A DNA stretch of 53,765 bases from a virus. Lineage: Duplodnaviria > Caudoviricetes. A model generated the notes under the pieces. The model worked only from the letters and a program-made list of their open reading frames with translations. It did no database searches and was not told the DNA's origin. Where the stretch lies: positions 1 to 53,765 of IMG/VR virus record IMGVR_UViG_3300023181_000008. One strand, 5' to 3'. Shown piece by piece: positions 8,325-34,383 of the stretch. The position numbers and the translations under genes are program-made. The stretch's first letter is position 1; every line of letters starts with the position of its first letter.

Positions 8325-8336
8325 ATAAATATGTTG

Positions 8337-8456
8337 TAAGTTTGCTCCGTTGCCTTCTCACATTATCGCAACCAAAAAACATTATACGAACCCGTATATG
8401 AAGCAGACGTGAGAAGCTGTGGATTATACGGGTTTCTTATTTTATATTTTTAAGCT
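8337..8456 (+). ncRNA. Promoter (TAAGTTTG) plus kissing-loop leader RNA, copy A
   Basis: P1 GTTGC/GCAAC with loop CTTCTCAC (8354-8361); P2 AACCCGTATA/TATACGGGTT with UGAA/GGAU internal loop and apical loop GTGAGAAG (8409-8416); U-rich tail. Confidence 0.7.
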
Positions 8457-8792
8457 ATGGCAGGACATAAAAAAATACGTGATTTCTATATTCATACATG
8501 GGAATTGATTGGAGATAATAAATCCACTATCCAATTTATATACGAGCCTAAAGATTTTCAAGTTGAATATTGGGATTGGTATATCATTGTAGCTTTAGAA
8601 AAAGCTGATAAAGTAAAAGAAAATCGAGAGCAGCTTACTTCATCTTTGCTATTGGCGTACCGTTGGGCAATACGTGAGTGTTATAATCATCAACTCGACA
8701 GTTACATGAATAGATATGATTACCCTCGAAATAAAAATACTATAGAAGGTATTAAAGGATACATAAAACTAATTGAACTTAAATCAAAATGA
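8457..8792 (+). CDS. Hypothetical protein
   Basis: First gene of plus-strand island 2. Confidence 0.65.
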   Translation: MAGHKKIRDFYIHTWELIGDNKSTIQFIYEPKDFQVEYWDWYIIVALEKADKVKENREQLTSSLLLAYRWAIRECYNHQLDSYMNRYDYPRNKNTIEGIKGYIKLIELKSK

Positions 8793-9133
8793 CAATAGAA
8801 CAAATACCATCAGACGAGTTAACGGCAATGACAGATACTTTTTATAAAGCTTTTAAGGCTTCGGGTTGTAAACCTCGTTGCCATTGCTGTTCTAAAGAAA
8901 TTAAAACAAACAATTTTTTTAAATTAGGAACTGTAGTTAATGCGCCTAAAATAGATAGCGTTTCATCAGGGTATAGTAAGTGGCAAGAAACTGAAAGTAG
9001 AGAAGTAATGCTATGTGATGAATGTAGTGTAGATGATTATAACAACATGAGTGTTGAGGCTATTAAAAGTTACGAAGAATACCGAAAAAAGGGAGGCGGT
9101 TGTTTTAGGGTTAACGGAAAAATAATACATTAA
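8789..9133 (+). CDS. Hypothetical protein with Cys motifs (CHCC...CDEC), possibly Zn-binding
   Basis: CxxC pairs. Confidence 0.6.
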   Translation: MTIEQIPSDELTAMTDTFYKAFKASGCKPRCHCCSKEIKTNNFFKLGTVVNAPKIDSVSSGYSKWQETESREVMLCDECSVDDYNNMSVEAIKSYEEYRKKGGGCFRVNGKIIH

Positions 9134-9135
9134 TC

Positions 9136-9360
9136 ATGAAATACGACAGATACGAAAAACACTACCTTTCAACCGAAGGGTATTATTTTAAATACAGGAC
9201 AGATAACAATGACAGCACTATCGTTCGCGCTACACTTTATAACGATAACGGAGAACGCGTTGATGATGTAATGGTTAGCGCAGGCTGGGGACTTCCTGGA
9301 AAATCACAGCACGATGTTATAAATCACTTTGAATCACGAATATTTTTAAAACAGATTTAA
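9136..9360 (+). CDS. Hypothetical protein
   Basis: Packed ORF. Confidence 0.55.
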   Translation: MKYDRYEKHYLSTEGYYFKYRTDNNDSTIVRATLYNDNGERVDDVMVSAGWGLPGKSQHDVINHFESRIFLKQI

Positions 9361-9362
9361 CC

Positions 9363-9764
9363 ATGTTAGAAAACACATTAGAGAACAAGAGCCGCTTTAT
9401 GGCAAATTATTGGATGCAGAGAGTTTTATGCTTTAACGACGAAAATCAATACGTAATGGGTGAATGCTATTACGTAGATGGTAGTGTAGATGATTATATA
9501 TTCTTAGAACTAACCCCGCTATCTGCGATTACAGATGAAGATGCTATTGAGGTGGCTAAGATACTCAATGAAACCGTAAGGAATGATAGGTACAAAGAGG
9601 TAATTATTGACTATTTCGATGGGCACTTTGAAACCACAAATAGTAACAGAAAATGGCAAATTATGCATGTTACAGACTACCTACGCAGCAAATCTTACGC
9701 GTTGCCTTGGATGGGATTATCGGTTGAGGATTTAGTAAATTACGGATGGGTTAAACTTAAATAA
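9363..9764 (+). CDS. Hypothetical phage protein (paralog of 41207-41590)
   Basis: ENTLENKSRFMANYWMQRV...L+.LS.ITDED...YLRSKSY. Confidence 0.7.
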   Translation: MLENTLENKSRFMANYWMQRVLCFNDENQYVMGECYYVDGSVDDYIFLELTPLSAITDEDAIEVAKILNETVRNDRYKEVIIDYFDGHFETTNSNRKWQIMHVTDYLRSKSYALPWMGLSVEDLVNYGWVKLK

Positions 9765-9771
9765 ATTTAAA

Positions 9772-11079
9772 ATGAAAAAAATATCAGAATTAACAGGGAG
9801 TAACAATGTTATTCACATCAAAACAAAAAAGCAGGCTAAAGGCATTGCAAAGTTGTTTCCGGGATACGAAGAAGTGGTTATGGAAGCGTTTGTTAAATAT
9901 TATGGACAAAATACATGTTTGAGTCCTATTAAGGTTGGCGAAAATTTAAAAAGGGTTTATTATTGTGATTATAATAATTCAATAAAAAACGGCTACACAA
10001 TACACAAAGCCTCCGACTTTCTGCCAAAGAAATCTAAGCTTGCAAAACTTAGCAAACGCCTTACTATTGTGGAAACACAGATTGCTGAAATGATGGATAA
10101 GGATATTGACACTAAAGCAATGTCTAACATAGAACTTAAAACCGCTAATATAAACGGTAAATTGTATCATCTTAAATATGAAGGAAATGCAGCTTATATA
10201 GCGAATGTAGACAACATCGAGGTTAAGGACGCGCAACAGGAACTTTCAACGCTGCCTGAGAAGTGGTGTGTTAAGCCAATCGAAGAAACCTATAGATATG
10301 CTTTGCAATTTTATCCTAATTTATCAAATGGAGTTTTAGATGGATTAGGTTATTTACATTTTCCTTTATACAAAACAGGGTCTTGCAATTTATGTTGGAG
10401 TGCATTTATAAAAACAGGCTACACCGAAATAACCTTTGAGCAGTTTAAAAAATGGGTGCTGAAAGAAGATGTTTCCAAAATGGAAAGTACTGAGCCTGTT
10501 AAGTTACACACATGGTATATAACAGAAGATGGCGTGTCTTTATTTTGCTATTTGGATTTAGATTCAGCAAGGGTTTACGGTTTTCGTGAGGGTAATTTTA
10601 TCGAAAAAGATTCTTACTGGGGATGGCCTTTAGATTACAAAAAAAAGACACGTCTTGCTACTACCGAAGAAATATCAACCGCCCTTATAGCCGAAGCAAA
10701 GAAACGTGGGTTTGTAGATGGGGTAAAGTTTAAATCAGCAGCATCTAATGAACTTTTCGAAGCCACAGGAGACTATAAATATTATGATTACGACGGAGGA
10801 TTTGTTTCATATAAAGAAGGATGCATATTCCAAAAAGGCAAGTGGGCAGAAATAGTACCTGCTGAATTTGAATGGAGTAAGCCGGGGCAGTTGGTGCAGT
10901 ATCTTGATAGCCCATTTTTAGTTATAACAGGGCGTAATAATAGTTTAGTTTCTGAATATTTTAATGGCGCCATAGTAAGTATAGATGATAAATACAATTC
11001 AGTAATATTTGGAGATTACAGATCGTGGAATAAAGAAAGCTTCATACCATACACAGGAGAACCTATAATATTGAAATAA
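9772..11079 (+). CDS. Multi-module hypothetical protein
   Basis: 435 aa; contains LPEKWCVK, YTEITFEQFKKWVL and RLATTEEI..ALIAEAKKRGF blocks. Confidence 0.7.
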   Translation: MKKISELTGSNNVIHIKTKKQAKGIAKLFPGYEEVVMEAFVKYYGQNTCLSPIKVGENLKRVYYCDYNNSIKNGYTIHKASDFLPKKSKLAKLSKRLTIVETQIAEMMDKDIDTKAMSNIELKTANINGKLYHLKYEGNAAYIANVDNIEVKDAQQELSTLPEKWCVKPIEETYRYALQFYPNLSNGVLDGLGYLHFPLYKTGSCNLCWSAFIKTGYTEITFEQFKKWVLKEDVSKMESTEPVKLHTWYITEDGVSLFCYLDLDSARVYGFREGNFIEKDSYWGWPLDYKKKTRLATTEEISTALIAEAKKRGFVDGVKFKSAASNELFEATGDYKYYDYDGGFVSYKEGCIFQKGKWAEIVPAEFEWSKPGQLVQYLDSPFLVITGRNNSLVSEYFNGAIVSIDDKYNSVIFGDYRSWNKESFIPYTGEPIILK

Positions 11080-11360: not shown

Positions 11361-11383
11361 TTGTTTTTTAGTTTGGTTGGTTT

Positions 11384-11413
11384 AGCCGCTGTATTTACAC
11401 AGCGGCTTTTTTT
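11384..11413 (+). terminator. Intrinsic terminator between convergent genes
   Basis: AGCCGCTGT-atttac-ACAGCGGCT followed by a T run. Confidence 0.8.
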
Positions 11414-14400
11414 ATCCAATCCTTTTGCCTTTAAACTGTGCCCTGTTATTAGCATCATGTCGTTTACCTGCCGCTGTAGCCGCGAAGTAATTTAAGCCCC
11501 TCTTATCGGCTGTCATTACGTTTACAGGCATCTTAGCTAAGGTTCTATCCATTACCCTCTGCATATCGGACTCCGTTAACCCTGCAATGTTATTCATTAC
11601 CACGTTCGGCAGTCCGTTACTTAACAATCCGCTGCTTGCAATATCAGGATATACCTTAGTACCTTTAGGTAAGTCTACCAATGTAGATTTATTAGGCGTA
11701 ATGCTAAGCTTACCATCAGGAGTTTGTATAACCTCATGTCTACCACCATCGCCCACTATTGCCTTACCTCCTATGTGGTTATCCGTACCTTCTGCATAAG
11801 CAGGTATCGGTCTTGATGCTATCATGGCTATTTGCGCTGCTCCTAACGCACCAACTAATGCCGCAAGAACTACGTTAGGTAATGCCGATACAACCGCGCT
11901 CGCTGTACTTATAATAGCGTTAAACAATGCTGCTTCTTTATCTGCCTTAGCTTCTCTAATTCTTATCTCTCGCTTTTGTTCTTCTAATTGCCTTGCAAGC
12001 TCTTGTTCTGCTTCTGCATTGCCGTTAGCGAATTTCATCCTAATACTATAATTTCTGTCAAGCTCCGCAAGTTCGGCATCAGTATTAGCCTGCCTGTTTT
12101 GGTTTATGAATCCGTAAAGGTCTTTAGTCAGGTCAGTAACCAAATTAAACGATGCTTTAAAACCCTCAAACTCAACTTTATTGGCTTGCTTCATTTGGGA
12201 CTTATACTGCTCAACGTTTATAGCCCCTGAATCTAAAGCTGCTTTTGCTGCCATGCGTATATTTGCCGCTGCTGTGTGTGCCTGGTCTTGTATCTTTTGG
12301 AACGTGCTACCTACCCTTTTTTCTATGTTGCCTGCGGAATCTATTATTTCATACTCTACCTTATCGAATAATGTTGATAGCCCACTAAAGCCCATTTCAT
12401 CAAAGAAACCTGATACACGTGATTGCGATAATTCATTAAGGTATCTTTGGGTTTCGCTTCTTACATCGGCAATTGCTTTTAACCTGTCATTATCTGTTTT
12501 AAGTATATCTTTTTTAAGTTGAAGTTCTTTATTTTCTAAAGCTACAATAGATTCGTTTTGCCCTAACTGCTGATTCCTTGCAATTATTCGTTCCTTCTCT
12601 GCTTGTACCCTTTTAAGTTCAATACCTAATATTTTTTGCTCCGCATCCTCTTGATCCTCATTAATGCGCATTAAACTATTTTCTAACGCTGTAAAATCTC
12701 CATTCTCACGTATTGAATATAGTAGTTTGTTTGCCGACACAAGTCCCGCAAGTTGTCTTTCTTCTATTGTGTTAACAGATGCTTGGTCTTGAATAGATTC
12801 TAAAACACCCTGTAGTTTTTTGGCAGATTCTATTTCTATATTTGTTTTCTTAGATAAATATTCCTCGTCTATTAGTTCTTTTTTTAGGATATGCGAATAG
12901 TGAAGTGACGTTAACGAGCTTGCCGCTAAACTACCTTCTTTTATATTCTCTTTATACGCTTTTACCTGATTAGCGTAGTCTAAATCTTCAAGCCTTTTTG
13001 CTTCCGAATACTCTTGTTGGTTAAGTGTGTTTCTCTTGAAAAAGTAATTATTAGCAGCAGCGATACGCTTTTGATAATTTACCTCTTCGTCATTCATAAT
13101 ACGATCTTCTGACTCTATCCAGTATTCGATGTTTTGCTTACGTAAATTGAAAACATCAGCTAAATAGTCAACCTCTATTTTCTGACGCTTTTTGGTGGTT
13201 TCGGTAACCCCAAGTATAGCTACTTTTTCAGCCTCTAAGGCTTTTATTTTTGCCTGTATTGGCTTAGCCTCGTCTCGTGTTGTAGATTTATCTAAAAGGT
13301 CTTTTTGTTCTTTTATTAGTTTTTCTATGAATGTTACGTCTCTTGGGTCAGCCTTAGGGGCTTCAGGGGCAGCATTAGGCGAGGTGTTGCCTGTAGCTTT
13401 GTTTAGCTCTGTCTGAATACCAAGCCTGTTTTTTAACACCTCAATAGCCTGTTTTGTTTTAGCTATATTATCTTCATTCGCCAAACGTGCTTTTAGGTAT
13501 ACAGTTCTTTCTTCATCGGTTAAAGTCCTCCAATTACGTGTTACTGTATTTTGAACAACTAAAACGTCATTTCTTCTCTTAATAAATCCAACACCTTGAA
13601 GCCTTAATCCGTTAACCTCTTTCTCGGTAACATTTAAAACCTGTGCTTCTTTTTGGTATTGATTAAGTAGTTCTTGATTTTTCTTTAGCTCCTTATTAGT
13701 TTGCCTTTCGTATAGTTCTCTTTTAGCGGCTATATATTCCTTAGTTTTTGCTGTGTTAATAGCTAAGGCGTTGCCGTATTTATCCATTTTAGATATGGCG
13801 GCAGGCACAGTTTTTCCTAAAGCAGCCAATATATTATTCAGCTCTACTTGCTCTTTTGAGTTTAATTTTGTCTTGCCTGTCAAATCATCATACCTATCAG
13901 ACAGCCTTTTTATATACTCTGCATTCTGTTGGTTTACGTCCCTGTTTTTAATAAATTCAGCGGTATTTTTTTTAACACCCTCTTGGTTTTGTTTTAATTT
14001 AGCTTCCTGCTCTTCTACACTCACATTCATTTTGCTAATCCAGTATATTAACCCCGCTACTGCCGCTATAGCAAGACCAAGTGCGTTAGCTTTTAATATA
14101 GCCGAAAATCTTCCCCATGCTGCAGAAGCTATATTAGTTGCCGTTGTGTTGGCAACCTGAGCAACCGTATTAGCGGCAACACCTACTGTATTTTCTGCCT
14201 CGGCTATAGTGTTGGCTTCTGATGCAACCGTATTTACAGCTTCTGCTACCGTATCAGCCTCTACCGCCACGACATTTGCTGCTACCGCGACCGTGTTGGC
14301 TGCTGTGGCTGTTGTATTTGTCGCTTGTGCTGCCGTTTGTATAGACAATGACTGAGTCATTAGCCATGCTTGTAATTGTGCTGCTGCGGCAAATAATTTA

Positions 14401-16079
14401 TATGTAGCCCATGCGCCCGCACCCTTTAAAATCCACCCTATTATCTGAGTTAAATTGTCTCTAAGATAAATAAGCGCATCGGTAATTGTGCTTGTTCCTG
14501 AATTTGCTTCATTAGTGTTTAAAATATATGCGTCCCATTCATCATTAATATCTGATAGTATAGATGATATACTCTTGCTTGCTGCTTCAACTTCTGTATT
14601 TAAAGCCACATTATCTTTATACTCTTTGTTAGCGGTATTAACAGATTTTTCTAACAAGTTATAGTTAGCGGCTAATGCCCCTACGACAGTAAATGTACGC
14701 TTTTCGCTAAGCCCTAATTTATCTAAAACAAGCCCTAAGTTCTGTCCCTCTTTTTTTGCTTTTGAAAGGCCTGCAACCAATTTAAGGAACACTCCAGCTG
14801 CATCAGTATTGAATTGATCGGCTAATTCTTTTTCACTTAAACCTGTTAATTGCAAAACATCGCTTAGGTTTTCCCCTAAAGATATAGCCCTGTTTATTAC
14901 ATTAAATGTTGACTGTATTGCGCTCCTTGATGCTTCGGCTTCTGACCCTAAAGACGATGTAGCTGCTGCAACTCCAAGTATGCTATCGGCAGATGAATTA
15001 TATACAGCAGTACCTTTTGCTATTTCTGTGGCATTCGCTAATATCTCTGCTTCGGTGGTGGCAAAGTTGTTACCTAATTGGGTTATAACAGACGCAAGTC
15101 TGTCAGCGTTTTCAAAACTGTCAGCCGATACCTCTATAAATTTAGCAAAGTTTTGAACCTGTTCGTCAGATATTATATTTGATGTTAACTTTAGCTTTTC
15201 AATGGCAAGTGAAAACTTAAGTATGTTTTCAGTTCCTTTTACACCAAGCTGCCCGGCTATTTCTGCTGACTTCAATAACCCGTTAATATTAACACCTTCT
15301 GTAGCTACACCTAAGTCTATAACATCCTGTCCTAATTGCTTTAATTGGTCGCCTGTTATGTTTGTTGTTTTACCTACGGCTATTAATTGCCTGTCAAAGC
15401 TTTTAATTTCGTTAAATACGTCTCTAAGCATAGTAGCCAATAAAGCTACACCTGTAACTAAACCAAAAGCCCCTAAAAAATCTCTTATGCCTTGTGCGGC
15501 CTGTCTCGGGTAATTACCTACATTACGATTAAACCGCCCAACAGCCCTATCGGCTGCAAGCACCCTGGCGTTAAGTCTGTCAAAATCTGCTTGCGCTGTT
15601 CTTAGCTCTCTATTGTATTGTTTTTGGCTTTGCTCTGCTGTTCTGCCTCGGGCTATTAAGTCTTGCACTCTTCTGGCAGCAATATTTTGTTGTGCGCTTA
15701 GCCTTTCGTAAGAGTTGGCAAAAGTAGAGTTAGCCTGAGCGGCACGAGCGGCATTGGCAGCAAGTAACCTATTGTTGGTTATTTCTTGTTGCGTACGTTG
15801 GTTGTTGTTAGCTCTGGCATTGGCAACGCGTTCAGTAGACTGCGCAAGAGTATTATTAAGCCTTAACTGTTGTTCTAAAAGTATGTTATTCTGTTTAAGA
15901 AGTCCGTTAAGCTCATTTACAAAGGACTTAGCCTGCGAAGGTACTTTTATATTTTTAAAAGATTCCCCCGCCTTGTTTATGCCTTTCTTAAGTTCCTCAA
16001 CTGTCTTAATTAAGTCCTGAACTTCTTTACGGGCGTTTTTCTCAACAACCGATACAAATTCTCCGCTATTTCCTGCCAT
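11412..16079 (-). CDS. Tail tape measure protein
   Basis: 1555 aa, Ala-rich and coiled-coil; TP901-like core (VGKTTN...LGNNFATTEAEI); C-terminal PAYAEGT...VGDGG.HEVI motif. Confidence 0.92.
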   Translation of the reverse strand: MAGNSGEFVSVVEKNARKEVQDLIKTVEELKKGINKAGESFKNIKVPSQAKSFVNELNGLLKQNNILLEQQLRLNNTLAQSTERVANARANNNQRTQQEITNNRLLAANAARAAQANSTFANSYERLSAQQNIAARRVQDLIARGRTAEQSQKQYNRELRTAQADFDRLNARVLAADRAVGRFNRNVGNYPRQAAQGIRDFLGAFGLVTGVALLATMLRDVFNEIKSFDRQLIAVGKTTNITGDQLKQLGQDVIDLGVATEGVNINGLLKSAEIAGQLGVKGTENILKFSLAIEKLKLTSNIISDEQVQNFAKFIEVSADSFENADRLASVITQLGNNFATTEAEILANATEIAKGTAVYNSSADSILGVAAATSSLGSEAEASRSAIQSTFNVINRAISLGENLSDVLQLTGLSEKELADQFNTDAAGVFLKLVAGLSKAKKEGQNLGLVLDKLGLSEKRTFTVVGALAANYNLLEKSVNTANKEYKDNVALNTEVEAASKSISSILSDINDEWDAYILNTNEANSGTSTITDALIYLRDNLTQIIGWILKGAGAWATYKLFAAAAQLQAWLMTQSLSIQTAAQATNTTATAANTVAVAANVVAVEADTVAEAVNTVASEANTIAEAENTVGVAANTVAQVANTTATNIASAAWGRFSAILKANALGLAIAAVAGLIYWISKMNVSVEEQEAKLKQNQEGVKKNTAEFIKNRDVNQQNAEYIKRLSDRYDDLTGKTKLNSKEQVELNNILAALGKTVPAAISKMDKYGNALAINTAKTKEYIAAKRELYERQTNKELKKNQELLNQYQKEAQVLNVTEKEVNGLRLQGVGFIKRRNDVLVVQNTVTRNWRTLTDEERTVYLKARLANEDNIAKTKQAIEVLKNRLGIQTELNKATGNTSPNAAPEAPKADPRDVTFIEKLIKEQKDLLDKSTTRDEAKPIQAKIKALEAEKVAILGVTETTKKRQKIEVDYLADVFNLRKQNIEYWIESEDRIMNDEEVNYQKRIAAANNYFFKRNTLNQQEYSEAKRLEDLDYANQVKAYKENIKEGSLAASSLTSLHYSHILKKELIDEEYLSKKTNIEIESAKKLQGVLESIQDQASVNTIEERQLAGLVSANKLLYSIRENGDFTALENSLMRINEDQEDAEQKILGIELKRVQAEKERIIARNQQLGQNESIVALENKELQLKKDILKTDNDRLKAIADVRSETQRYLNELSQSRVSGFFDEMGFSGLSTLFDKVEYEIIDSAGNIEKRVGSTFQKIQDQAHTAAANIRMAAKAALDSGAINVEQYKSQMKQANKVEFEGFKASFNLVTDLTKDLYGFINQNRQANTDAELAELDRNYSIRMKFANGNAEAEQELARQLEEQKREIRIREAKADKEAALFNAIISTASAVVSALPNVVLAALVGALGAAQIAMIASRPIPAYAEGTDNHIGGKAIVGDGGRHEVIQTPDGKLSITPNKSTLVDLPKGTKVYPDIASSGLLSNGLPNVVMNNIAGLTESDMQRVMDRTLAKMPVNVMTADKRGLNYFAATAAGKRHDANNRAQFKGKRIG

Positions 16080-17271: not shown

Positions 17272-17274
17272 AAA

Positions 17275-18210: not shown

Positions 18211-18232
18211 TTGTTATATTTTTTAATAATTA

Positions 18233-19398: not shown

Positions 19399-19400
19399 AA

Positions 19401-27573: not shown

Positions 27574-27575
27574 AA

Positions 27576-28084: not shown

Positions 28085-28302
28085 AACTTCTCAAAGTATT
28101 TGTAATTAAAAAAATATTGTTCTTCAATCCTTCCAAAGTCGTAAATGTCTTTGTTGTGATACGCTTCGTTTTTATCATCAGAGCTAAATAATAACTCCTT
28201 GTTGCTCGGGTCTACCACGCAGTAGATGTATTTAACGTCTTGGTCGACATAATCGTTATCGTGGTCGTAAGCCTGGTTTAATAAGTAGTTGTCGTAGTTC
28301 AT
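28081..28302 (-). CDS. Hypothetical protein (start moved to MNYDNY)
   Basis: TAATG coupling with the upstream peptide gene. Confidence 0.6.
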   Translation of the reverse strand: MNYDNYLLNQAYDHDNDYVDQDVKYIYCVVDPSNKELLFSSDDKNEAYHNKDIYDFGRIEEQYFFNYKYFEKL

Positions 28303-28415
28303 TACTTCATACACCCAAAGGCGCAAAATGGGTTAAAACAATAGCTACCTGAATACTTGCAAAAAGCCATAAATTTAGCTTTACGTTTAGCGTGTATTTT
28401 TTTAAGTCTTTTCAT
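28302..28415 (-). CDS. 37-aa basic Cys-rich peptide (not in ORF track)
   Basis: MKRLKKIHAKRKAKFMAFCKYSGSYCFNPFCAFGCMK*; A-rich leader; TAATG overlap with the next gene. Confidence 0.55.
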   Translation of the reverse strand: MKRLKKIHAKRKAKFMAFCKYSGSYCFNPFCAFGCMK

Positions 28416-28433
28416 AATATGTTGGTTTTAGTT

Positions 28434-28604
28434 TTACTCGAATTTATTTAAATGCCTTTCACATTGCCTTTTAGTGTATCTTCTTTGAAAATACTTTATA
28501 GCGCAATTTTTAAACCCCGATGAATATCCGGTACAGTTACCTATTTAAAATGCTATCATTGAGCATACAAGGGCTATAATTACACAAAATTCAATTTTTA
28601 TCAT
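28434..28604 (-). pseudogene. Small membrane protein ORF with in-frame TAA at 28547-28545
   Basis: MIKIEFCVIIALVCSMIAF*IGNCTGYSSGFKNCAIKYFQRRYTKRQCERHLNKFE*. Confidence 0.55.
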
Positions 28605-28742
28605 CTTACTTTAATTTAGTGATATTTTGAAAAATTGCAGCCCGAAAGTGTACTCTACTATTTGGCCGCTTCTTATGTTTTCTACTTTTGAGTAAGTGAT
28701 TAGGCGCATTGGTTACGCGTATGCAGCCGCGCCCCTGATTTA

Positions 28743-28991
28743 TTATACTAATTTAAACATTGATGCACTTAAGCTTTCTAATTGTCCGAAACTCGTAACA
28801 AAGTTTCCTTTTAAATCTTTTAAATGATACTTCATAACTCCATAAAAATTATATTCTTGATGGATTATAAATATTTTTTTTAACCCTATCTTATCTTTCA
28901 AGTTTTCATATTGAAAATGATATTGCCCTGTTTTTTTATTAAAATCAATCTCATTTGGATTTTTTAATTTAACCCTGTTAACTTTTGCCAT
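28743..28991 (-). CDS. Hypothetical protein
   Basis: Packed ORF. Confidence 0.55.
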   Translation of the reverse strand: MAKVNRVKLKNPNEIDFNKKTGQYHFQYENLKDKIGLKKIFIIHQEYNFYGVMKYHLKDLKGNFVTSFGQLESLSASMFKLV

Positions 28992-28998
28992 AATGTTT

Positions 28999-29307
28999 TT
29001 ATTTAAGCCATTCGCCTGTTATGATTACCTTAGGAGAATCAGGAATGCTTAACCAATGTGTAGGGTCGGTACTTTCCTTTAATTCATCGTCCCAATCTTC
29101 AAAATGTTGCTCTGTTTTACATACGGTCATATATGTATCTTGATAGCTCCAATAAAAAGCTGTTATCCAAGTATCATCGCCATTTAAAAAACCTACTCGT
29201 GTGCCATTGGGGTTAAAATCTTCATCAACCCATTTTTCATTAAAGCATAAAACCTCTAACCCATATTCTGGAGTTTCGTCTTGTACTCTTGACCATGTTG
29301 TTTTCAT
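28999..29307 (-). CDS. DUF551-like protein
   Basis: W..V.DE.PE....VL...PTHW..IP..P. Confidence 0.7.
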   Translation of the reverse strand: MKTTWSRVQDETPEYGLEVLCFNEKWVDEDFNPNGTRVGFLNGDDTWITAFYWSYQDTYMTVCKTEQHFEDWDDELKESTDPTHWLSIPDSPKVIITGEWLK

Positions 29308-29542
29308 CTTACTTTATTTAAAGGCTTTCGCCTGTTAATGAGTTCAAATAAATTTCTCTCTTTTTGCAAACTGCTAATGCATCCATAAAATTATCTGCAT
29401 TTATATCTAAAGACAAAAAGTATTGTCTTGCTTCGTATAAAGCTTTTTTTGCATCGTAAATATCTAAAGCTAATGATACTGCTACGTCCATAACATAATT
29501 TATTTTAAAGGGCGGGGTTAACCGCCCGTGGTTAGTTAATTA

Positions 29543-29809
29543 TTATCGATATTTACTATTTACAAGCCAGCTAACAGCCTGGTTATACTCTTGCCATTCC
29601 TCAGGGCTTAAATCCCAATCTTCTACAACGGGAGTATAGTTACCTACTTTTTTAGAAGTACTGTAATCTGACTCCCTGTGCCAAGAGTTATTTTCTGTAT
29701 CAAATTGAACGTGTGTGTACCAAGTGTCTTCGCCTATACCACATAAAATTTTATCCCCTTCAACTAAGGTTTGACCTAAATCGTTAATGCCCCATGTTTT
29801 AGTTGCCAT
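29543..29809 (-). CDS. Hypothetical protein
   Basis: ORF preceded by near-consensus TACCTTTA. Confidence 0.6.
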   Translation of the reverse strand: MATKTWGINDLGQTLVEGDKILCGIGEDTWYTHVQFDTENNSWHRESDYSTSKKVGNYTPVVEDWDLSPEEWQEYNQAVSWLVNSKYR

Positions 29810-29855
29810 AATTTCTATTGCTTTATTATTATGATGTAAAGGTAACGGTTTTTAG

Positions 29856-30056
29856 TTACATACCAAATAAAATATCACTTATTTTTAAATTATTTTTTTG
29901 GCAAAGTAAAATACAGTTTTCGAGGCTTGGTTTGTGTGAACCATTTTTCCACTCCTGAAACCTTTGCCTTGTAATCCCTGCGGTATTAGCTAATGCGCTA
30001 CCTGTCTTACCAGATTGTTTAATTAGCTCTAATATGAATAGTTGCGAATGTGTCAT
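29856..30056 (-). CDS. XRE/Cro-like HTH transcriptional regulator
   Basis: SALANTAGITRQRFQEWKNGSHKPSLE. Confidence 0.85.
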   Translation of the reverse strand: MTHSQLFILELIKQSGKTGSALANTAGITRQRFQEWKNGSHKPSLENCILLCQKNNLKISDILFGM

Positions 30057-30241
30057 ATATATTTAGTCATTTGTTTTAATGGTATTTTAATAATCTCCCC
30101 GCCTATGTATCGAATCCAACAATCTGTAGTGTCGAATCCTGCAACATAGAACTCTAACCCCTGTGGCGAAGTATACACCTTAGCGTTATAAGGTATTTCA
30201 AAGCTTTTATACAGACGGTTACCACAGCGCACGATACTCAA
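30053..30241 (-). CDS. Hypothetical protein
   Basis: Coupled ORF. Confidence 0.5.
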   Translation of the reverse strand: MSIVRCGNRLYKSFEIPYNAKVYTSPQGLEFYVAGFDTTDCWIRYIGGEIIKIPLKQMTKYI

Positions 30242-30530
30242 TTTCTCTATCCCAGTCTATAGCATCCTGAATGCCGTGCTGCATGCCTGGGCTTATTCCT
30301 AAATCAGTATAAACAACTGTTTTATTTGCTGAATGTCTCCAACTTAGCCCGGCTTCAATACCAAGCTCACGTTCTTCCTTTATAGTGTCGTCCAATACCA
30401 TTGTATAAAGCAAATGGCTCAAAAGCGGAGCCTCATTTCGCATTAGGCTGTCTTTCATGCATAGCTTAGCATATTCTATGTTTTTTTCTACATCCCCCGC
30501 GTATGGAGATTCTAATATTACTGTTACCAT
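30219..30530 (-). CDS. Conserved phage protein (ESPYAGD; nucleoside deoxyribosyltransferase-like fold)
   Basis: VILESPYAGDVEKNIEYA..C..D...R.EAP..SHLLY...ER..GI..G..W...VY.DLGIS.GM. Confidence 0.75.
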   Translation of the reverse strand: MVTVILESPYAGDVEKNIEYAKLCMKDSLMRNEAPLLSHLLYTMVLDDTIKEERELGIEAGLSWRHSANKTVVYTDLGISPGMQHGIQDAIDWDREIEYRALW

Positions 30531-31171
30531 AGTGTTTGTTGGTTTTGGTGGTTTTTAAGGCGGTTTAAAGCAGCTTCGTAGTAATCTTTATCTAATTCAC
30601 ATGCAGTAAGGTCAAAGCCTAAATTATGACATGCTATAGCTATTGAGCCGCTTCCTAAATGGGTATCAAGTATTTTATTTCCTTGCTGCGCATACCTCAT
30701 TAACAACCATTCGTAAAGCTTAACCGGTTTTTGTGTTGGATGGATTCTAATTTCTTTTTCTTTCATATTTCCCTGTAGCATTCCATTCCACATAAATGTA
30801 AACTTATCTACAATAACACCAAATGAATGACTTGCCAACTCACATTTTGAAAAAGTACTACTTTCGTTTTGTTTGTCCCATACAATTCTACCAAAATCAG
30901 GAATGTGCTTCGCGTAATAATTACAACCCCAAATAATTTGATTCTTACTAACCCTAAACAATTCATTAAAATATTTTTCGTCAGGAATTCCCCAATGGTT
31001 TATTTTTTTTGTCTGCCTTTTAACTCCTGTTGTACTATAATCGTTACCGGTGTAATTTTGCTTTGCGTAGTTTTCAAAATAAGGCGGGTCTACAATAGCC
31101 AAATCAAAATAGTTATCAGGGTATCTCGACATAAGAACCATATTATCCTCATTTGTAATCTCTATGCTCAT
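30524..31171 (-). CDS. DNA N6-adenine/N4-cytosine methyltransferase, beta class (start MSIEIT)
   Basis: DLAIVDPPY; HPTQKPVKLY; ILDTHLGSGS. Confidence 0.93.
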   Translation of the reverse strand: MSIEITNEDNMVLMSRYPDNYFDLAIVDPPYFENYAKQNYTGNDYSTTGVKRQTKKINHWGIPDEKYFNELFRVSKNQIIWGCNYYAKHIPDFGRIVWDKQNESSTFSKCELASHSFGVIVDKFTFMWNGMLQGNMKEKEIRIHPTQKPVKLYEWLLMRYAQQGNKILDTHLGSGSIAIACHNLGFDLTACELDKDYYEAALNRLKNHQNQQTLW

Positions 31172-31270
31172 AAAATAAAAAACCCCTGCAATCAACAGGT
31201 CGTAGGCTGTATCATACAAGGGAATTGTAAAATGTTGTTATTGTAGCTACGACTCTACTTTGCAAATGTA
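31172..31270 (-). ncRNA. Promoter (TACATTTG) plus kissing-loop leader RNA, copy C
   Basis: P1 GTAG/CTAC with loop AGTCGTAG; P2 CCCTTGTA/TGCAGGGG with UGAU/UGAU internal loop and loop CCTACGAC; TTTTTTATTTT before ATG. Confidence 0.7.
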
Positions 31271-31581
31271 AGCATTAATTCCTTAAATTCAACAACAGAT
31301 CGAATAATGTTATACGAATATCCCAACAATTCTACTTGTGATTGAAATATTTTCTGCCCGGGCGACTGATTGTTATATCCTGTTTTGAACTCGACAAAAT
31401 GACATCCATTAAATAAAACAATAGTATCTGAACAACCTTCTTTTATTGTAATGTCTTTTCTTTTTGCTGCCAACTCATTTGGAACGGGTATAATAACGCC
31501 AAGCCCTTTACGTTCGTACTCATTACGGAACAGGGCAATTGAATCTGTCTGAATATAATGTTCAGAAGGGTATGTCTTCAT
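31255..31581 (-). CDS. VRR-NUC domain nuclease
   Basis: SEH.IQ...VPNE...G.SD......FVEFKT....QS..QK.F...V...G..Y..IRS. Confidence 0.85.
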   Translation of the reverse strand: MKTYPSEHYIQTDSIALFRNEYERKGLGVIIPVPNELAAKRKDITIKEGCSDTIVLFNGCHFVEFKTGYNNQSPGQKIFQSQVELLGYSYNIIRSVVEFKELMLTFAK

Positions 31582-33913
31582 CTTCTACTGGTTTTATTTT
31601 GGTTGAAAATTCTATATATCTCATTGTGTGTGTACGTCCTTGTTCTATTTCATATTCGTAATACTCTCCAAACCTCTCTAACCATTTAGTAAATGTTTTT
31701 TGAGACAGCCATTTTTTAAAGTCTTGGTAGTCGTTAAGGAATTTATTATAAATTTCGTTTTTATCATTTCTTATATTTAGGGGAATATTTTCAACATCTT
31801 GACCCCATTCGTAAAACTCAAAAGAAGTTTCTTTAATAAATTTACGCACTTCAAGGTTGTTGAAATCATGCTTAACAAGTCCATTCTGCAAATAGTATTG
31901 TGAGCAATTAATCATAAAATTATCGAACCTTAACCACTCTTCGTTATCCCAATCAGAAAAAAGCATGTGCCCAAACTCGTCTAATGGTGTGTGCTTATAA
32001 TTAAAATATGCAGACATTTCTACTTCAAATTTTCTACGCTCAAAAGACCCACCTATGCCGCCTATCGTGTAGTTTGTCGTAATAAGTATTTTAGGGCTTT
32101 TTTCAACAGGAATAGATATAGCGTCCTGTCCTTTATATTCAAGCGTTATACCCTCCGTAATTAGGCTAAAAAGGCTTTCAAAGTTGAAGTTCTTTTTAAC
32201 ATCATCAAAAACTAACAATTGAGTATCGGTAGATACTGTTTGGTAAGGAAATGACTTCGTAAACTCGAAAGTTTTACCATCTATAGACGATACTTTTTTC
32301 ATGTTTTTTAATGCATTCCAAAATAAACCTTTTCCGCTGCCACCGTTAGGGTTCTCAGAAATAGTTTCATCATTAAAAATAATAGCCTTATTGTTTGCGC
32401 TTGTTTTAAAAGAGTGCAGAAGATAACCTATTACAGATTTAAAGCTATTATATTTTTGTACATTCTGCCCGGATATTAGCCATAAGAACTTCCTGAATAC
32501 TGATGAGTGATGATCTGATTTTTTAAAAACCCTATTTATAATTTGCCGCTTCCAAATGTAACCATCAATGTCAATGTAATCAATTTCATTTAACCCACTT
32601 TTAGTAATCTCAACTACACAATTTTTATAATATAAATAGCATATTTCTTTTGTATCTTCTTTTATATTTACATCTGTTGTGTTCAGCATAGACAAGAAGT
32701 CTGACTTAAAATAAGATGTGTTTCCGGCCATAAAATCGTAGGGTGCATAGCCAATATCATTTCTTTCTAAAATATTGTTTAAAACATAATCTTTTATCCT
32801 CTTATCGCTTGTCTCTTCTAAAAGATTTTGTTCCTTTTTAATAAATGTAAAAGTGCTGCTTGTTTCAGATGGATAGTACTTAAAAAAATTATTCTGCTCT
32901 AACCAAAATTTAAATTTATGGGTAGAAAGTATTATTTTGTTTTTGTCGTTATAATACCAAAATTCATCAATATCTAAGTTTTGCTTAATTCTTGAAATAT
33001 CCACACCTTTAAAAGCTGCTTCAATATCTTTTTTAGTAGCTCCTGTCCTAACCATTTTTTCAACCTTTTCTTTTGTAATAACATCCTCAAAATGTTTAGT
33101 GCCTGGTGGAGAAGCTTTTTTATAAGAAGATTTTACAATCGAAAGTATTTCTTTTTGCTTACCGCCTTGATCAAATTTCAAACACTCATGTTCGGCATCT
33201 GTTTTAGATATTCCAAAGTCGTAAAACGCACTTGCAAGAATATAAAGATTTGTGTTCTTTTTACCTATTGTCATACCGTATTTTTTCTGCCACCAAGTCA
33301 ATAGGTTCTCTATTATTTGATTTTCAGATACAAGCCTAACAACGGGTTCATAAACCCCTATATCTTCAAGTTCCGGCTCATCTAAATATATCCATACAGA
33401 ACTTTCTTTATTAATGTAAATATCAGGGTCATAAGATTCAAAACAAAATCTTGATACATCACTGCCGCTATCATCCCAATTAGGGTGGTTAAAATGCTTT
33501 TTAAGGGCAATGAAATAACCTTTATGGTTTTCTACTTTTGCAGGAACTTTAACCAAGACTTTTAACCCTTTACCGCTTGGAGAAATCCATGCAGCAAAAA
33601 CAAATTCGTCAGATGATATGCTATCTCTTAAAATTATAGCAGCATCCATTGATTCAAGTTTATCAATATCAAGTATTATAAATCCTGAATGTTCAATTAA
33701 TCCAGTTACAGACCTGTTACTAAACTTACCGTTAAAGCAAATACCTGGAAGTATTGATTTATTTTTAGCATAATCATCATCACTCATTAACCTAAGTTGA
33801 TGAATTTGATCTTTTGATTTTCCTTCTTTTATTCGGTCTAAAGCATAATAAATTGACTTATTAAAAGGATTGTTTGCATCCTTAACCGATTTAAATAATG
33901 ATACTGTACTCAT
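31562..33913 (-). CDS. Primase-helicase (BT4734/VirE N-terminal-like domain, PriCT-like linker, P-loop helicase)
   Basis: HSGFIILDID, ISPSGKGLK, D.S..DVSR.CFESYDP; GGSGKG Walker A; LLVFDDV; TTNY. Confidence 0.85.
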   Translation of the reverse strand: MSTVSLFKSVKDANNPFNKSIYYALDRIKEGKSKDQIHQLRLMSDDDYAKNKSILPGICFNGKFSNRSVTGLIEHSGFIILDIDKLESMDAAIILRDSISSDEFVFAAWISPSGKGLKVLVKVPAKVENHKGYFIALKKHFNHPNWDDSGSDVSRFCFESYDPDIYINKESSVWIYLDEPELEDIGVYEPVVRLVSENQIIENLLTWWQKKYGMTIGKKNTNLYILASAFYDFGISKTDAEHECLKFDQGGKQKEILSIVKSSYKKASPPGTKHFEDVITKEKVEKMVRTGATKKDIEAAFKGVDISRIKQNLDIDEFWYYNDKNKIILSTHKFKFWLEQNNFFKYYPSETSSTFTFIKKEQNLLEETSDKRIKDYVLNNILERNDIGYAPYDFMAGNTSYFKSDFLSMLNTTDVNIKEDTKEICYLYYKNCVVEITKSGLNEIDYIDIDGYIWKRQIINRVFKKSDHHSSVFRKFLWLISGQNVQKYNSFKSVIGYLLHSFKTSANNKAIIFNDETISENPNGGSGKGLFWNALKNMKKVSSIDGKTFEFTKSFPYQTVSTDTQLLVFDDVKKNFNFESLFSLITEGITLEYKGQDAISIPVEKSPKILITTNYTIGGIGGSFERRKFEVEMSAYFNYKHTPLDEFGHMLFSDWDNEEWLRFDNFMINCSQYYLQNGLVKHDFNNLEVRKFIKETSFEFYEWGQDVENIPLNIRNDKNEIYNKFLNDYQDFKKWLSQKTFTKWLERFGEYYEYEIEQGRTHTMRYIEFSTKIKPVEDEDIPF

Positions 33914-34272
33914 AATAATTCTAATCTTACATTAACAGATTCTTTAACAGGAAATCCGTTTATAAAAACAAATGGTATCCCATTATGCATAGCCACATAC
34001 TTTTTCCTGTTCTTATTGTATACCAATAAATTATCAAAGGAGTTATCTTCTTTAATAAAATTTAAATGTGATATTTTAAAAATATTAATTAAATATGGTT
34101 CAAAATTAAACAAAACAGGGGCTATAAAATATTCAAGTCTTTTGGATCCATCGGAAAGATTATAAATAACATAACCTTTACTGCTTATGTGCCCTTTGAG
34201 TAACTTTTGGTTTTTATTTAAAACCGTTCCATCTTTGAGTATGGTATAATCGTTAATTTTTATGTATTCCAT
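33910..34272 (-). CDS. Degenerate HNH endonuclease-like protein (start MEYIKI)
   Basis: Y.I..DG.V......LK......GY...L and ISHLNFIKEDNSFDNL resemble HNH_3, but the HRL motif is eroded. Confidence 0.6.
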   Translation of the reverse strand: MEYIKINDYTILKDGTVLNKNQKLLKGHISSKGYVIYNLSDGSKRLEYFIAPVLFNFEPYLINIFKISHLNFIKEDNSFDNLLVYNKNRKKYVAMHNGIPFVFINGFPVKESVNVRLELL

Positions 34273-34383
34273 AATAAAAATAAAGCCCTTAAAATCCACG
34301 TGTCTACTCGTTTCATTCAAGGGCTGTTTTGGTTAAGTTAACCAGTATCTTGATAGAGGTAGACAATCTCTTTTGCAAATATA
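34273..34383 (-). ncRNA. Promoter (TATATTTG) plus kissing-loop leader RNA, copy D
   Basis: P1 AGAG/CTCT with loop ATTGTCTAC; P2 AGCCCTTGAA/TTTAAGGGCT with UGAA/GGAU internal loop and loop AGTAGACA; TTATTTTTATT before ATG. Confidence 0.7.

What the first reader, a model, noticed from the sequence alone, without database searches (positions are those of the whole stretch)
8337..34383. Four covarying copies of a promoter-linked kissing-loop leader RNA
Seen: copies at 8337-8456 (+), 25338-25435 (-), 31172-31270 (-) and 34273-34383 (-) share one layout despite divergent sequence. Each has a TAnnTTTG promoter, a short hairpin P1, a linker, a long hairpin P2 with a 4x4 NGAN/NGAN internal loop (UGAA/GGAU, AGAU/UGAA, UGAU/UGAU, UGAA/GGAU), a U-rich tail and then the ATG. 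In each copy the P1 loop is complementary to its own P2 loop: CUUCUCAC/GUGAGAAG, GUAGUAG/CUACUAC, GUCGUAG/CUACGAC and UGUCUAC/GUAGACA. Copies B and C differ by a compensatory A-U to C-G pair. The downstream genes are an unknown protein, an HNH nuclease, a DNA MTase and a degenerate HNH upstream of the primase. Inference: this is a family of cis attenuators or short terminated sRNAs with copy-specific loop codes that restrain potentially toxic, mobile DNA-acting genes. I cannot assign it to a named Rfam family from memory.
Basis: partly seen in the sequence, partly recalled or inferred. Interest (0 to 1): 0.85.

Follow-up and report, generated by a model that had tools for sequence, protein, structure and literature searches.

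The report
Phage leader RNA with self-kissing terminator
Four short leader RNAs in this Flavobacterium-type phage, and dozens more in related phages, pair their own 5' end with the loop of a terminator-like hairpin just before the gene; this looks like an undescribed way of gating early phage genes.

Summary
All four copies have a TAnnTTTG box, a 5' segment in or beside a weak hairpin P1, and a terminator-like hairpin P2. P2 has a 4x4 NGAN/NGAN internal loop, a T tract and then the ATG. Each P2 loop pairs 7-8 bp with its own 5' segment at -7.6 to -11.9 kcal/mol; pairing between copies is no better than -3.9.

The same layout recurs in related uncultured phages and in cultured Flavobacterium phage elemoE, with at least 24 different loop sequences that keep complementarity. 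I picked 18 GA-type hairpins without looking upstream. Of these, 14 pair at 7 nt or more with their own leader, against 9 of 298 cross pairs. No Rfam 15 family matches.

In relatives the leaders mostly precede primase and helicase genes. Homing endonucleases and the methylase appear to sit behind pre-existing leaders, so the "restrains toxic mobile genes" reading is only partly supported.

The best reading is a cis-acting promoter-proximal attenuator whose terminator is locked or tuned by a kissing helix. There are no expression data, and no conserved antiterminator was found.

The parts
8337..8344 (+). Copy A: Bacteroidota sigma-A type -7 box TAAGTTTG
   Evidence: The box spans -12 to -5 in Flavobacterium (PMC9723704, passages), so the inferred start of transcription is about 8349.
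8349..8372 (+). Copy A: P1 hairpin (GUUGC/GCAAC stem). The 5' kissing segment CUUCUCAC is at 8354-8361.
8388..8435 (+). Copy A: P2 terminator-like hairpin. Internal loop UGAA 8399-8402 / GGAU 8421-8424. Apical loop 8407-8416 with kissing segment GUGAGAAG 8409-8416.
   Evidence: R1 52.2 bits; own duplex -11.9 kcal/mol
8436..8459 (+). Copy A: T-rich tail and ATG (8457) of the unknown 111-aa gene
25428..25435 (-). Copy B: -7 box TATCTTTG
25408..25426 (-). Copy B: P1 hairpin. The 5' kissing segment GUAGUAG is at 25418-25412.
25349..25386 (-). Copy B: P2 hairpin. Internal loop AGAU 25379-25376 / UGAA 25359-25356. Loop CCUACUAC 25371-25364.
   Evidence: (R1 30.0 bits)
25335..25348 (-). Copy B: T tail and ATG (25337) of the NUMOD4+HNH endonuclease. 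This gene lies between terS (25447-25980) and terL (23485-24789).
31263..31270 (-). Copy C: -7 box TACATTTG
31243..31258 (-). Copy C: possible P1 hairpin GUAG/CUAC. The 5' kissing segment GUCGUAG is at 31253-31247.
   Evidence: This stem is not in the minimum-energy fold.
31183..31222 (-). Copy C: P2 hairpin. Internal loop UGAU 31214-31211 / UGAU 31194-31191. Loop CCUACGAC 31206-31199. Two G-U pairs in the lower stem.
   Evidence: (R1 53.9 bits)
31169..31182 (-). Copy C: T tail and ATG (31171) of the N6/N4 DNA methylase
34376..34383 (-). Copy D: -7 box TATATTTG
34355..34371 (-). Copy D: P1 hairpin AGAG/CUCU. The 5' kissing segment UGUCUAC is at 34365-34359.
34331..34343 (-). Copy D: middle hairpin GGUUAACUUAACC in the linker, conserved with compensatory changes in type-2 relatives
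   Evidence: helix 3: 4 of 6 pairs change on both sides
34284..34325 (-). Copy D: P2 hairpin. Internal loop UGAA 34315-34312 / GGAU 34297-34294. Loop AGUAGACA 34308-34301.
   Evidence: (R1 50.7 bits)
34270..34283 (-). Copy D: T tail and ATG (34272) of the 120-aa HNH-like remnant, which is followed by the primase (31562-33913)

Best explanation
These are members of an undescribed family of promoter-proximal leader RNAs, about 85-100 nt long, found in phages of Flavobacterium-type hosts.

Proposed layout. Host RNA polymerase starts about 5 nt after a TAnnTTTG box. A 7-9-nt segment lies near the 5' end of the transcript, often displayed in the loop of a weak 4-6-bp hairpin P1. This segment pairs with the apical loop of P2. 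P2 is a 16-20-pair hairpin with a G+C-rich base directly followed by a U tract, which is the form of an intrinsic terminator. P2 is often interrupted by a tandem G-A 4x4 internal loop.

Proposed mechanism. The element works in cis as a transcription attenuator. Most transcripts would end at the U tract, a few nucleotides before the start codon. Read-through would set the expression of the gene or operon behind it: mainly primase, helicase and other early replication genes, plus homing endonucleases and a methylase that sit behind such leaders. The kissing helix would be a tertiary lock on the terminator. It either tunes how fast or how firmly P2 folds, or it gives a sequence-independent shape that a host or phage factor reads.

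Shown: the structure, its covariation, its strand, and its link to the promoter box and to gene starts.
Inferred: the transcription start, termination at P2, and the direction of the kissing effect.
For: Structure and chance:
- P2 with its internal loop is the minimum-energy fold in 4 of 4 copies.
- Only these four NGAN/NGAN hairpins in the genome carry a T tail.

Covariation, selected without looking upstream:
- Of 18 unique GA-type T-tailed hairpins, 14 pair at 7 nt or more (17 at 6 or more) with their own upstream region. Cross pairs reach 7 or more in 9 of 298.
- Type-2 alignment of 7 sequences: the kissing helix is paired in 100% of cells and 3 of 7 pairs change on both sides. The whole structure is 95.2% paired against 78.5% in shuffles, with 0 of 500 shuffles as high.
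- Type-3 alignment of 12 sequences: 6 of 7 kissing pairs change on both sides and 76% of cells are paired, although several rows are out of register.

Link to the promoter and the GA loop, among 1724 unique T-tailed hairpins:
- 32 of 60 kiss-positive hairpins have TAnnTTTG 30-70 nt upstream, against 67 of 1664 kiss-negative ones (odds ratio 27, p 3e-26).
- GA/GA internal loops occur in 16 of 60 against 2 of 1664.
- The 32 carry 24 distinct loop codes.

RNA on the sense strand:
- 39 of 479 stem pairs are G-U.
- The sense strand folds better than the antisense strand in 28 of 32.

Kissing geometry:
- In 32 of 32 the paired segment abuts the 3' end of the P2 loop.
- 0-3 nt are left unpaired on the 5' side.

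Terminator character:
- The T tract always follows the stem directly, whether the ATG is 6 or 37 nt away.
- It resembles the ordinary terminators at gene ends in the same phages.
- In L008 and L009 an ordinary terminator stands just upstream of the box, so P2 there is not needed to stop upstream transcription.

The four window codes do not cross-pair: own duplexes are -7.6 to -11.9 kcal/mol and cross duplexes are no better than -3.9.

Distribution: five complete relatives carry 1-3 leaders each. More distant phages with helicases 32-35% identical also carry them, and so does cultured Flavobacterium phage vB_FspP_elemoE_10-3D.
Against: - There are no expression data of any kind, so the transcription start and termination are inferred from sequence only.
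- No conserved antiterminator was found. Pairing of the linker with the 5' strand of P2 is stronger than in shuffles (z below -2) in only 9 of 32 leaders, and several of those reflect a hairpin inside the linker. Many leaders score 0 kcal/mol. A classical two-state attenuator is therefore not supported.
- No known antiterminator, NusG-like or RNA-binding family was found. 60 small ORFs were scanned with Pfam, 10 larger genes with both Pfam and PHROGs, and 20 with PHROGs alone.
- Copy B lies between terS and terL. An efficient terminator there would also cut off the packaging and head genes.
- In L004 a P2 survives before the primase without its 5' partner. The kissing is therefore not indispensable for expression of that gene.
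- The tandem-GA loop is missing in some members.
Confidence: 0.5

Rival explanations
1. It is a 5'-UTR element that acts after transcription. The folded leader (5' end tied into the P2 loop, tandem-GA loop, A-rich linker) protects the mRNA from 5'-end-dependent decay, or it is the nucleation or binding site for a protein that controls translation of the adjacent start codon. This would resemble the pseudoknot in the phage T4 gene 32 leader (recalled from my own knowledge). In this reading P2 does not terminate efficiently.
For: - P2 ends only 6-27 nt before the ATG in most members.
- Translation in Flavobacterium is tuned by mRNA structure near the start (PMC6847099, abstract).
- The 5' segment begins 4-17 nt after the box, at about +1 to +13 of the RNA. 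The 5' end would therefore be sequestered.
- Copy B inside the terS-terL operon, and the L004 remnant, are easier to explain if P2 is not a strong terminator.
- The linker motif AAAAnATTATAC is conserved in sequence, which suggests a recognition site.
Against: - The T tract stays attached to the stem, not to the ATG, when the spacer grows to 20-37 nt.
- The stem base is G+C rich, as in the ordinary terminators of these phages.
- A simple 5' hairpin would be enough for stabilisation.
- No candidate binding protein was identified.
Confidence: 0.2
2. The terminated RNA of about 85-95 nt is itself the product. It would be a compact, nuclease-resistant small RNA made early in infection. It could act as a decoy for a host protein that binds the tandem-GA or kissing shape, or it could act in trans on nascent copies of its own leader through the copy-specific loops.
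For: - A promoter, a terminator about 85-95 nt later, and both ends tied into structure are the build of a stable small RNA.
- The four codes in one genome do not cross-pair. That matters only if the RNAs could meet in trans.
- Terminator loops of small RNAs are known to be used for base pairing (PMC11979758, seen only as a title and the start of the abstract in the listing).
Against: - Every member sits immediately before a start codon in the same orientation, which is the pattern of a cis element.
- The variable loops are occupied by each other, so they are poor seeds for other targets.
- No convincing trans target exists in the genome. The longest foreign complement is one 14-mer, with a rough chance probability of about 0.04 that I worked out by hand rather than in a call.
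Confidence: 0.15
3. It is a ligand-sensing riboswitch-like aptamer. The kissing helix, the tandem-GA loop and the conserved A-rich linker would form a pocket, and binding would stabilise the terminator.
For: - The sequence-conserved parts are the NGAN/NGAN loop and the linker, while the helices covary. This is the usual pattern of aptamers.
- Loop-loop contacts organise the purine, lysine and guanidine-II riboswitches (recalled from my own knowledge).
Against: - The GA loop is absent in several members that keep the kissing.
- The linker motif differs between types.
- There is no alternative expression platform.
- There is no Rfam match.
- Host genomes could not be searched.
Confidence: 0.05
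4. It is a DNA-level signal: an origin, an operator or a recombination site made of nested inverted repeats.
For: - The leaders lie in the replication module.
- In other relatives the same place before the primase holds iteron-like repeated boxes.
Against: - G-U pairs and the strand asymmetry (28 of 32) point to RNA.
- 24 different loop sequences cannot all be sites for one protein.
- The fixed order of box, segment, hairpin, T tract and ATG is a transcript layout.
Confidence: 0.03

Closest known systems
Promoter-proximal terminators of phage early and late operons read through by antitermination (lambda N/nut at tL1 and tR1; Q at PR'-tR' with its short 6S transcript). Recalled from my own knowledge.
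   Same: A host-type promoter is followed within about 100-200 nt by an intrinsic terminator placed ahead of replication and other delayed genes. A short terminated RNA is the default product.
   Different: Here the terminator loop pairs with the transcript's own 5' end. No N- or Q-like protein and no boxA/boxB-like conserved sequence was found. The loops differ in every copy.
Antisense-RNA kissing control of replication leaders (ColE1 RNA I/RNA II with Rom; R1 CopA/CopT; pT181 and pIP501 attenuation). Recalled from my own knowledge.
   Same: Loop-loop helices of 7 nt with covarying, replicon-specific sequences. In pT181 and pIP501 the outcome is premature termination in a leader before a replication gene.
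   Different: In those systems the two loops are on two RNAs made from opposite strands. Here both are on one transcript. A TAnnTTTG box on the opposite strand lies near only 1 of the 4 copies (31053 (+) near copy C).
HK022 put RNA. Recalled from my own knowledge.
   Same: A protein-free, promoter-proximal RNA made of two stem-loops that acts in cis on the transcribing polymerase.
   Different: put suppresses terminators further downstream and is not itself a terminator. No loop-loop pairing is described for it.
Phage T4 gene 32 leader pseudoknot. Recalled from my own knowledge.
   Same: A covarying pseudoknot at the 5' end of a phage replication-gene mRNA, followed by an A/U-rich stretch and the start codon.
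   Different: The T4 element is a compact H-type pseudoknot without a terminator hairpin or U tract. It serves translational autoregulation.
Zipper-type attenuator of pLS20-family conjugation operons (PMC13401043, abstract read)
   Same: A leader in which an upstream segment is complementary to part of a downstream intrinsic terminator.
   Different: There the upstream segment pairs with the terminator stem and forms an antiterminator. Here it pairs only with the loop, which is compatible with the terminator stem. No antiterminator is conserved.
K-turn and other tandem G-A motifs. Recalled from my own knowledge.
   Same: Tandem sheared G-A / A-G pairs in the middle of a helix.
   Different: A K-turn has a 3-nt bulge on one strand. 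Here the loop is symmetric, 4x4 or 3x3, flanked by U-U, A-G or A-A.

Membership tests
Any Rfam 15 family | Match at or above the family's gathering score | tested here: not met
   Whole window at the gathering threshold: only a permuted tmRNA and a tRNA. E-value mode up to 10 on 8300-8480 and 25300-34420: nothing at copies B, C or D; at copy A only sub-threshold hits of 14-22 bits against gathering scores of 37-60. Eleven related loci that hold leaders: only tRNAs.
Intrinsic (Rho-independent) terminator | Stable hairpin with a G+C-rich base, directly followed by a U tract | tested here: met
   Met in sequence form only: 4 of 4 window copies and all 32 box-linked members. The tool's simple terminator scan does not call them because of the internal loop.
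Intrinsic (Rho-independent) terminator | RNA 3' ends at the U tract | not testable with these tools
   This needs RNA 3'-end mapping, which none of these tools provides.
Classical transcription attenuator or riboswitch expression platform | A conserved alternative (antiterminator) pairing that excludes the terminator | tested here: not met
   Linker against the 5' strand of P2: z below -2 in 9 of 32, mean z -0.76, many at 0 kcal/mol. The 5' segment pairs with the loop only and does not extend into the stem.
Kissing-loop complex | Two hairpin loops of about 7-8 nt that are complementary over nearly their whole length | tested here: met
   Copies B, C and D and the type-2 and type-3 relatives have 8-nt loops with 7 paired nucleotides. 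In some type-1 relatives the 5' partner has no clear hairpin, so the contact there is loop to 5' strand.
Kissing-loop complex | Covariation that keeps the loops complementary | tested here: met
Antisense-controlled attenuator (pT181 or pIP501 type) | A countertranscript promoter on the opposite strand within the leader | tested here: not met
   A TAnnTTTG box on the opposite strand within about 150 nt and pointing into the leader is found only near copy C (31053, +). There is none for A, B or D. Other promoter types were not tested.
K-turn | A 3-nt bulge followed by tandem G-A pairs | tested here: not met
   The internal loops are symmetric.
Bacteroidota sigma-A promoter | A TAnnTTTG -7 box at -12 to -5 | tested here: inconclusive
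   The box is present in 4 of 4 copies and in 32 of 60 kiss-positive hairpins, against 67 of 1664 others. Its position relative to a real start site is unknown. The -12 to -5 position is taken from PMC9723704 (passages).

The most novel reading that the evidence does not exclude
These leaders are a natural set of mutually orthogonal, self-addressed attenuators. Each transcript would carry its own built-in 'antisense' segment at the 5' end. This segment kisses the loop of its own terminator, and the resulting bent loop-loop helix together with the tandem G-A platform would be read by shape, not by sequence. That would make a terminator loop a regulatory receptor for the transcript's own 5' end, a principle not described for any attenuator I could find.
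Probability: 0.2. Interest if true: 0.85.

Novelty: new variant of a known kind. Interest (0 to 1): 0.68.

Why it matters
- Gene regulation in phages of Bacteroidota is almost unexplored, and their hosts lack Shine-Dalgarno-based initiation.
- This is a widespread, strongly covarying leader RNA at the head of the replication genes. It would be a new handle on how these phages time early expression.
- Its architecture, with the loop of a terminator paired to the transcript's own 5' end, is not among the attenuator, riboswitch or antisense designs I could find.
- The many natural, non-cross-pairing loop codes would also interest people who build orthogonal RNA regulators.
- One member lies in a cultured phage-host pair (Flavobacterium phage elemoE on Flavobacterium sp. 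BAL314), so the question can be tested directly.

Tried and rejected
- Rfam at gathering and at permissive thresholds gave no family.
- megablast of 20 kb of the window against cultured phage records gave no match.
- A public-run search with kind 'any' on 25300-34420 listed no RNA holder, only two DNA runs. I therefore did not use read laying.
- The classical antiterminator test was negative.
- The search for trans targets of the four leaders in the genome found nothing convincing.
- Pfam on 60 small ORFs found no antiterminator or RNA-binding family.
- The 435-aa gene of the copy-A operon has only unnamed relatives.
- MAFFT could not place the 5' segments of all types in one register. Tool-based pair counts were therefore made on the type-2 alignment and on a partly mis-registered type-3 alignment. 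The family-wide test was done by script.
- My test for a P1 stem was too permissive: it scored 32 of 32. I do not use it.
- Five literature searches found no description of this element. This covers only the held library.
- Table S7 of PMC9723704 lists 64 structured 5' regions of F. psychrophilum. It is a supplement that I could not see, and it might hold similar host leaders.
- Rejected readings: hammerhead or K-turn (the loop geometry does not fit), a leader peptide (no conserved small ORF, by eye), and a DNA-level repeat.

Full report
WHAT THE WINDOW IS

The window is a complete phage genome of 53,765 bp in one contig, with 36% G+C. The genes identified are:

| Gene | Coordinates | Strand |
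|---|---|---|
| Tape measure protein | 11412-16079 | - |
| Major head protein | 19576-20655 | - |
| Portal | 22073-23506 | - |
| Large terminase (terL) | 23485-24789 | - |
| Small terminase (terS) | 25447-25980 | - |
| Primase | 31562-33913 | - |
| ResIII/DEAD helicase | 34597-36249 | - |
| RecT-like protein | 43890-44540 | + |
| Exonuclease | 44540-45478 | + |

The nearest cultured relatives by primase are Flavobacterium, Nonlabens, Polaribacter and Cellulophaga phages at 43% identity or less. The host is therefore most likely a member of the Flavobacteriia.

Each of the four places reads, in the direction of the downstream gene:
- a TAnnTTTG box;
- a short segment that can sit in the loop of a 4-5-bp hairpin;
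- an A-rich linker (with an extra small hairpin in copy D);
- a long hairpin P2, with a G+C-rich base, a symmetric NGAN/NGAN internal loop, a 3-4-bp upper stem and an 8-10-nt loop;
- a T tract;
- the ATG, 11-22 nt after the hairpin.

RNAfold returns P2 with its 4x4 loop as the minimum-energy fold for all four. It returns P1 for A, B and D. A descriptor scan of both strands finds six hairpins with this internal loop. Only the four reported ones have a T-rich tail.

The box by itself is as common as chance, with 84 found against 84.7 expected. The evidence therefore lies in its fixed distance from P2, not in its presence.

The own-loop duplexes are 7-8 Watson-Crick pairs worth -7.6 to -11.9 kcal/mol. 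All twelve cross-combinations between copies are -3.9 or weaker. B and C differ in the kissing helix by one compensated pair.

IT IS A FAMILY, AND THE LOOP-LOOP PAIRING COVARIES

Loci around primase relatives came from IMG/VR: 62 loci. A second set came from helicase relatives: 80 loci obtained from an alignment of eight helicases.

The GA-loop descriptor, which knows nothing about the upstream region, gave 21 T-tailed hits in the window plus the 62 primase loci. Twenty of them have an exact complement of 6-9 nt to the P2 loop lying 28-41 nt upstream.

After removing duplicates, 18 elements remain:
- 14 pair at 7 nt or more with their own upstream region, and 17 at 6 or more.
- When loops are paired with the upstream regions of other elements, 9 of 298 reach 7 nt. 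Those nine are between visibly related loops.

A more general scan looked for any T-tailed hairpin whose loop is complementary to a segment 18-50 nt upstream. It found members without the GA loop as well.

Among 1724 unique T-tailed hairpins:
- 60 are kiss-positive.
- 32 of the 60 carry a strict TAnnTTTG box 30-70 nt upstream, against 67 of the other 1664 (odds ratio 27, p 3e-26).
- GA/GA internal loops occur in 16 of the 60 against 2 of 1664.
- The 32 box-linked members use 24 different loop sequences.

Some of the 28 kiss-positive hairpins without a strict box have variant boxes such as TAnnTTAG or TAnnTTTA. Others are A+T-rich or inside genes and are probably chance.

Tool-based pair counts agree:
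- Type-2 alignment, 7 sequences: the kissing helix is paired in every cell and 3 of 7 pairs change on both sides. P1, the middle hairpin and both parts of P2 also show double changes. No shuffle of 500 reaches the observed values.
- Type-3 alignment, 12 sequences: MAFFT leaves several rows out of register. Even so, 76% of kissing cells pair and 6 of 7 pairs change on both sides. Sliding by 3 columns also gives 56-59% because the loops are internally periodic, so this second count is weaker.

The structure is RNA on the sense strand. 39 of 479 stem pairs are G-U, and the sense strand folds better than its complement in 28 of 32.

The geometry is constant. In 32 of 32 the paired stretch ends exactly at the 3' end of the P2 loop (or one nucleotide into the stem), and 0-3 nucleotides are left unpaired on the 5' side. 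This is what a loop-loop (kissing) helix stacked on the 3' strand looks like. The last point rests on my knowledge of such complexes, not on a call.

WHERE THE LEADERS SIT

Five complete relatives carry one to three leaders each, all in or near the replication module.

The open reading frames that follow the unique leaders are mostly these:
- The primase: about a dozen cases, matching the primase coordinates.
- A helicase of about 545 aa: nine cases, seven of them aligned.

The rest are small unknown proteins and a possible ATPase. There are also NUMOD4/HNH-like proteins (window B and D, L018, L023) and a GIY-YIG-like protein (L019). Apart from the window genes, which were scanned, these last assignments were made by eye from the N-terminal sequences.

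Several observations show that the leader belongs to the replication genes and that endonucleases have come to lie behind it:
- In relatives the type-2 leader abuts the primase ATG (L001 5183-5224). In the window the HNH remnant lies between that leader and the primase.
- Copy B with its HNH gene is lodged between terS and terL.
- One member is in a cultured phage, Flavobacterium phage vB_FspP_elemoE_10-3D. It lies before a 61-aa ORF, the 'replication protein' and the primase/helicase.
- More distant phages, with helicases only 32-35% identical, also have such leaders (L106, L113, L123).

HOW IT PROBABLY WORKS

In F. psychrophilum the sigma-A box TAnnTTTG occupies -12 to -5 (PMC9723704, passages). 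The 5' segment starts 4-17 nt after the box, at about +1 to +13 of the RNA.

P2 has the form of an intrinsic terminator:
- Its T tract stays attached to the stem when the distance to the ATG varies from 6 to 37 nt.
- It resembles the plain terminators found at gene ends in the same contigs.
- In L008 and L009 a plain terminator stands immediately upstream of the box. P2 there cannot be explained as the stop signal of the preceding operon.

The simplest reading is a promoter-proximal attenuator that releases an RNA of about 85-95 nt unless the polymerase reads through.

It is not a classical two-state attenuator. The 5' segment pairs only with the loop, which is compatible with the stem, and no alternative pairing of the linker with the P2 stem is conserved. 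The kissing helix would instead act as a tertiary element. It could change the folding rate or stability of a hairpin whose upper stem is only 3-5 bp above a non-canonical loop. Or it could offer a shape that a factor recognises independently of sequence.

I cannot tell the sign of the effect. I found no candidate factor: no antiterminator, NusG-like or RNA-binding Pfam family among 60 small ORFs, nor among the larger genes, of which 10 had Pfam and PHROGs and 20 had PHROGs only.

Three points speak against strong termination:
- Copy B lies inside the packaging operon.
- The L004 remnant keeps P2 before the primase but has lost the 5' partner.
- There are no RNA data at all.

For these reasons a post-transcriptional role (stability or translation) and a role for the short RNA itself remain live rivals.

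COMPARISON WITH WHAT IS KNOWN

No Rfam 15 family matches the window copies or the leaders in eleven related loci.

Five full-text searches found no description of such an element. The nearest item in print that I saw is the zipper-type attenuator of pLS20. There an upstream segment pairs with the terminator stem to make an antiterminator (PMC13401043, abstract), which is a different logic.

The other comparators are recalled from my own knowledge, not tested here:
- Antisense kissing systems such as ColE1, R1 and pT181. The element resembles them in its loop-loop chemistry.
- Lambda-type promoter-proximal terminators. The element resembles them in its placement.
- HK022 put.
- The T4 gene 32 pseudoknot.

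The element fails the defining features of each where I could test them; the membership table gives the details.

VERDICT

This is a real RNA family that is new to Rfam, with unusually clear covariation for a long-range loop contact. It is widespread in phages of Flavobacterium-type hosts. The mechanism is unproven. I rate it a new variant of a known kind (cis-acting leader or attenuator), with interest 0.68.

Noticed in passing
window 25978-26392 (-): A permuted (two-piece) tmRNA-like gene. Rfam RF04321 scores 52.3 bits against a gathering score of 47 at 26069-26300. ARAGORN calls a permuted tmRNA at 25978-26344 with a tag peptide ending in AA. It sits next to a tRNA-Asp at 26320-26392, between ordinary TATATTTG boxes and a plain terminator (26027-26002). 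A phage-borne permuted tmRNA in a Flavobacterium-type phage seems unusual.
   Followed up: no
window 8317-8324 (-) and 25988-25995 (-): TATATTTG boxes lie only 4 nt before the ATG of the 871-aa gene (8312) and 7 nt before the ATG of terS (25980). With a start about 5 nt after the box, these mRNAs would be leaderless or nearly so. This contrasts with the four leaders of about 90 nt.
   Followed up: partly
window 34420-34585 (-); L016 and L030 about 9750-10000; L033-L061; L048 and L049: Repeated short boxes lie upstream of the primase region. The window has GTGTC/GACAC-type boxes before the copy-D box. L016 and L030 have GTGTCAC boxes. The 37%-identity primase group has TGACGAT/ATCGTCA boxes. 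L048 and L049 have ACCGGAAT boxes. They look like iterons or operators. In some phages they occupy the place that the leader has in others.
   Followed up: no
window 24864-25337 (-): A NUMOD4+HNH endonuclease with its own box and leader is inserted between terS and terL. This is a typical free-standing homing endonuclease position.
   Followed up: partly
type-1 leaders, e.g. window 8376-8387; alignment A10: A sequence-conserved linker motif, AAAAnATTATAC, sits directly 5' of P2 although the P2 stems differ. Its reverse complement contains TATAAT. Its function is unknown. It could be a tertiary contact, a protein site or an antisense promoter.
   Followed up: no
L004 8634-8682: A type-1 P2 with a UGAU/UGAU loop survives before the primase but has lost its 5' partner. 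A TATATTTG box lies only 23 nt upstream, and a complete type-2 leader plus a 107-aa ORF lie just before it.
   Followed up: partly
window 10897-10910 (+) against the copy-D linker 34356-34343: A 14-nt perfect complement exists between the linker of leader D and the sense strand of the 435-aa gene in the operon behind leader A. The rough chance probability is about 0.04, so it is probably coincidence.
   Followed up: no
L003, L004 and L005, downstream of P2: The spacer between the U tract and the primase ATG is a G-free C/A-rich run (ACCAAACCCAACCAAAC). It is reminiscent of CA-rich translation enhancers or of a Rho loading site.
   Followed up: no
window, ORFs among 2910-5645, 26525-31581 and 36425-52142: Pfam families found among the small ORFs are HTH_3 (Cro/CI type), Bac_DnaA_C, YopX, DUF3127, DUF551, DUF7768 and Amidase_2. 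I did not look up which ORF carries which family.
   Followed up: no
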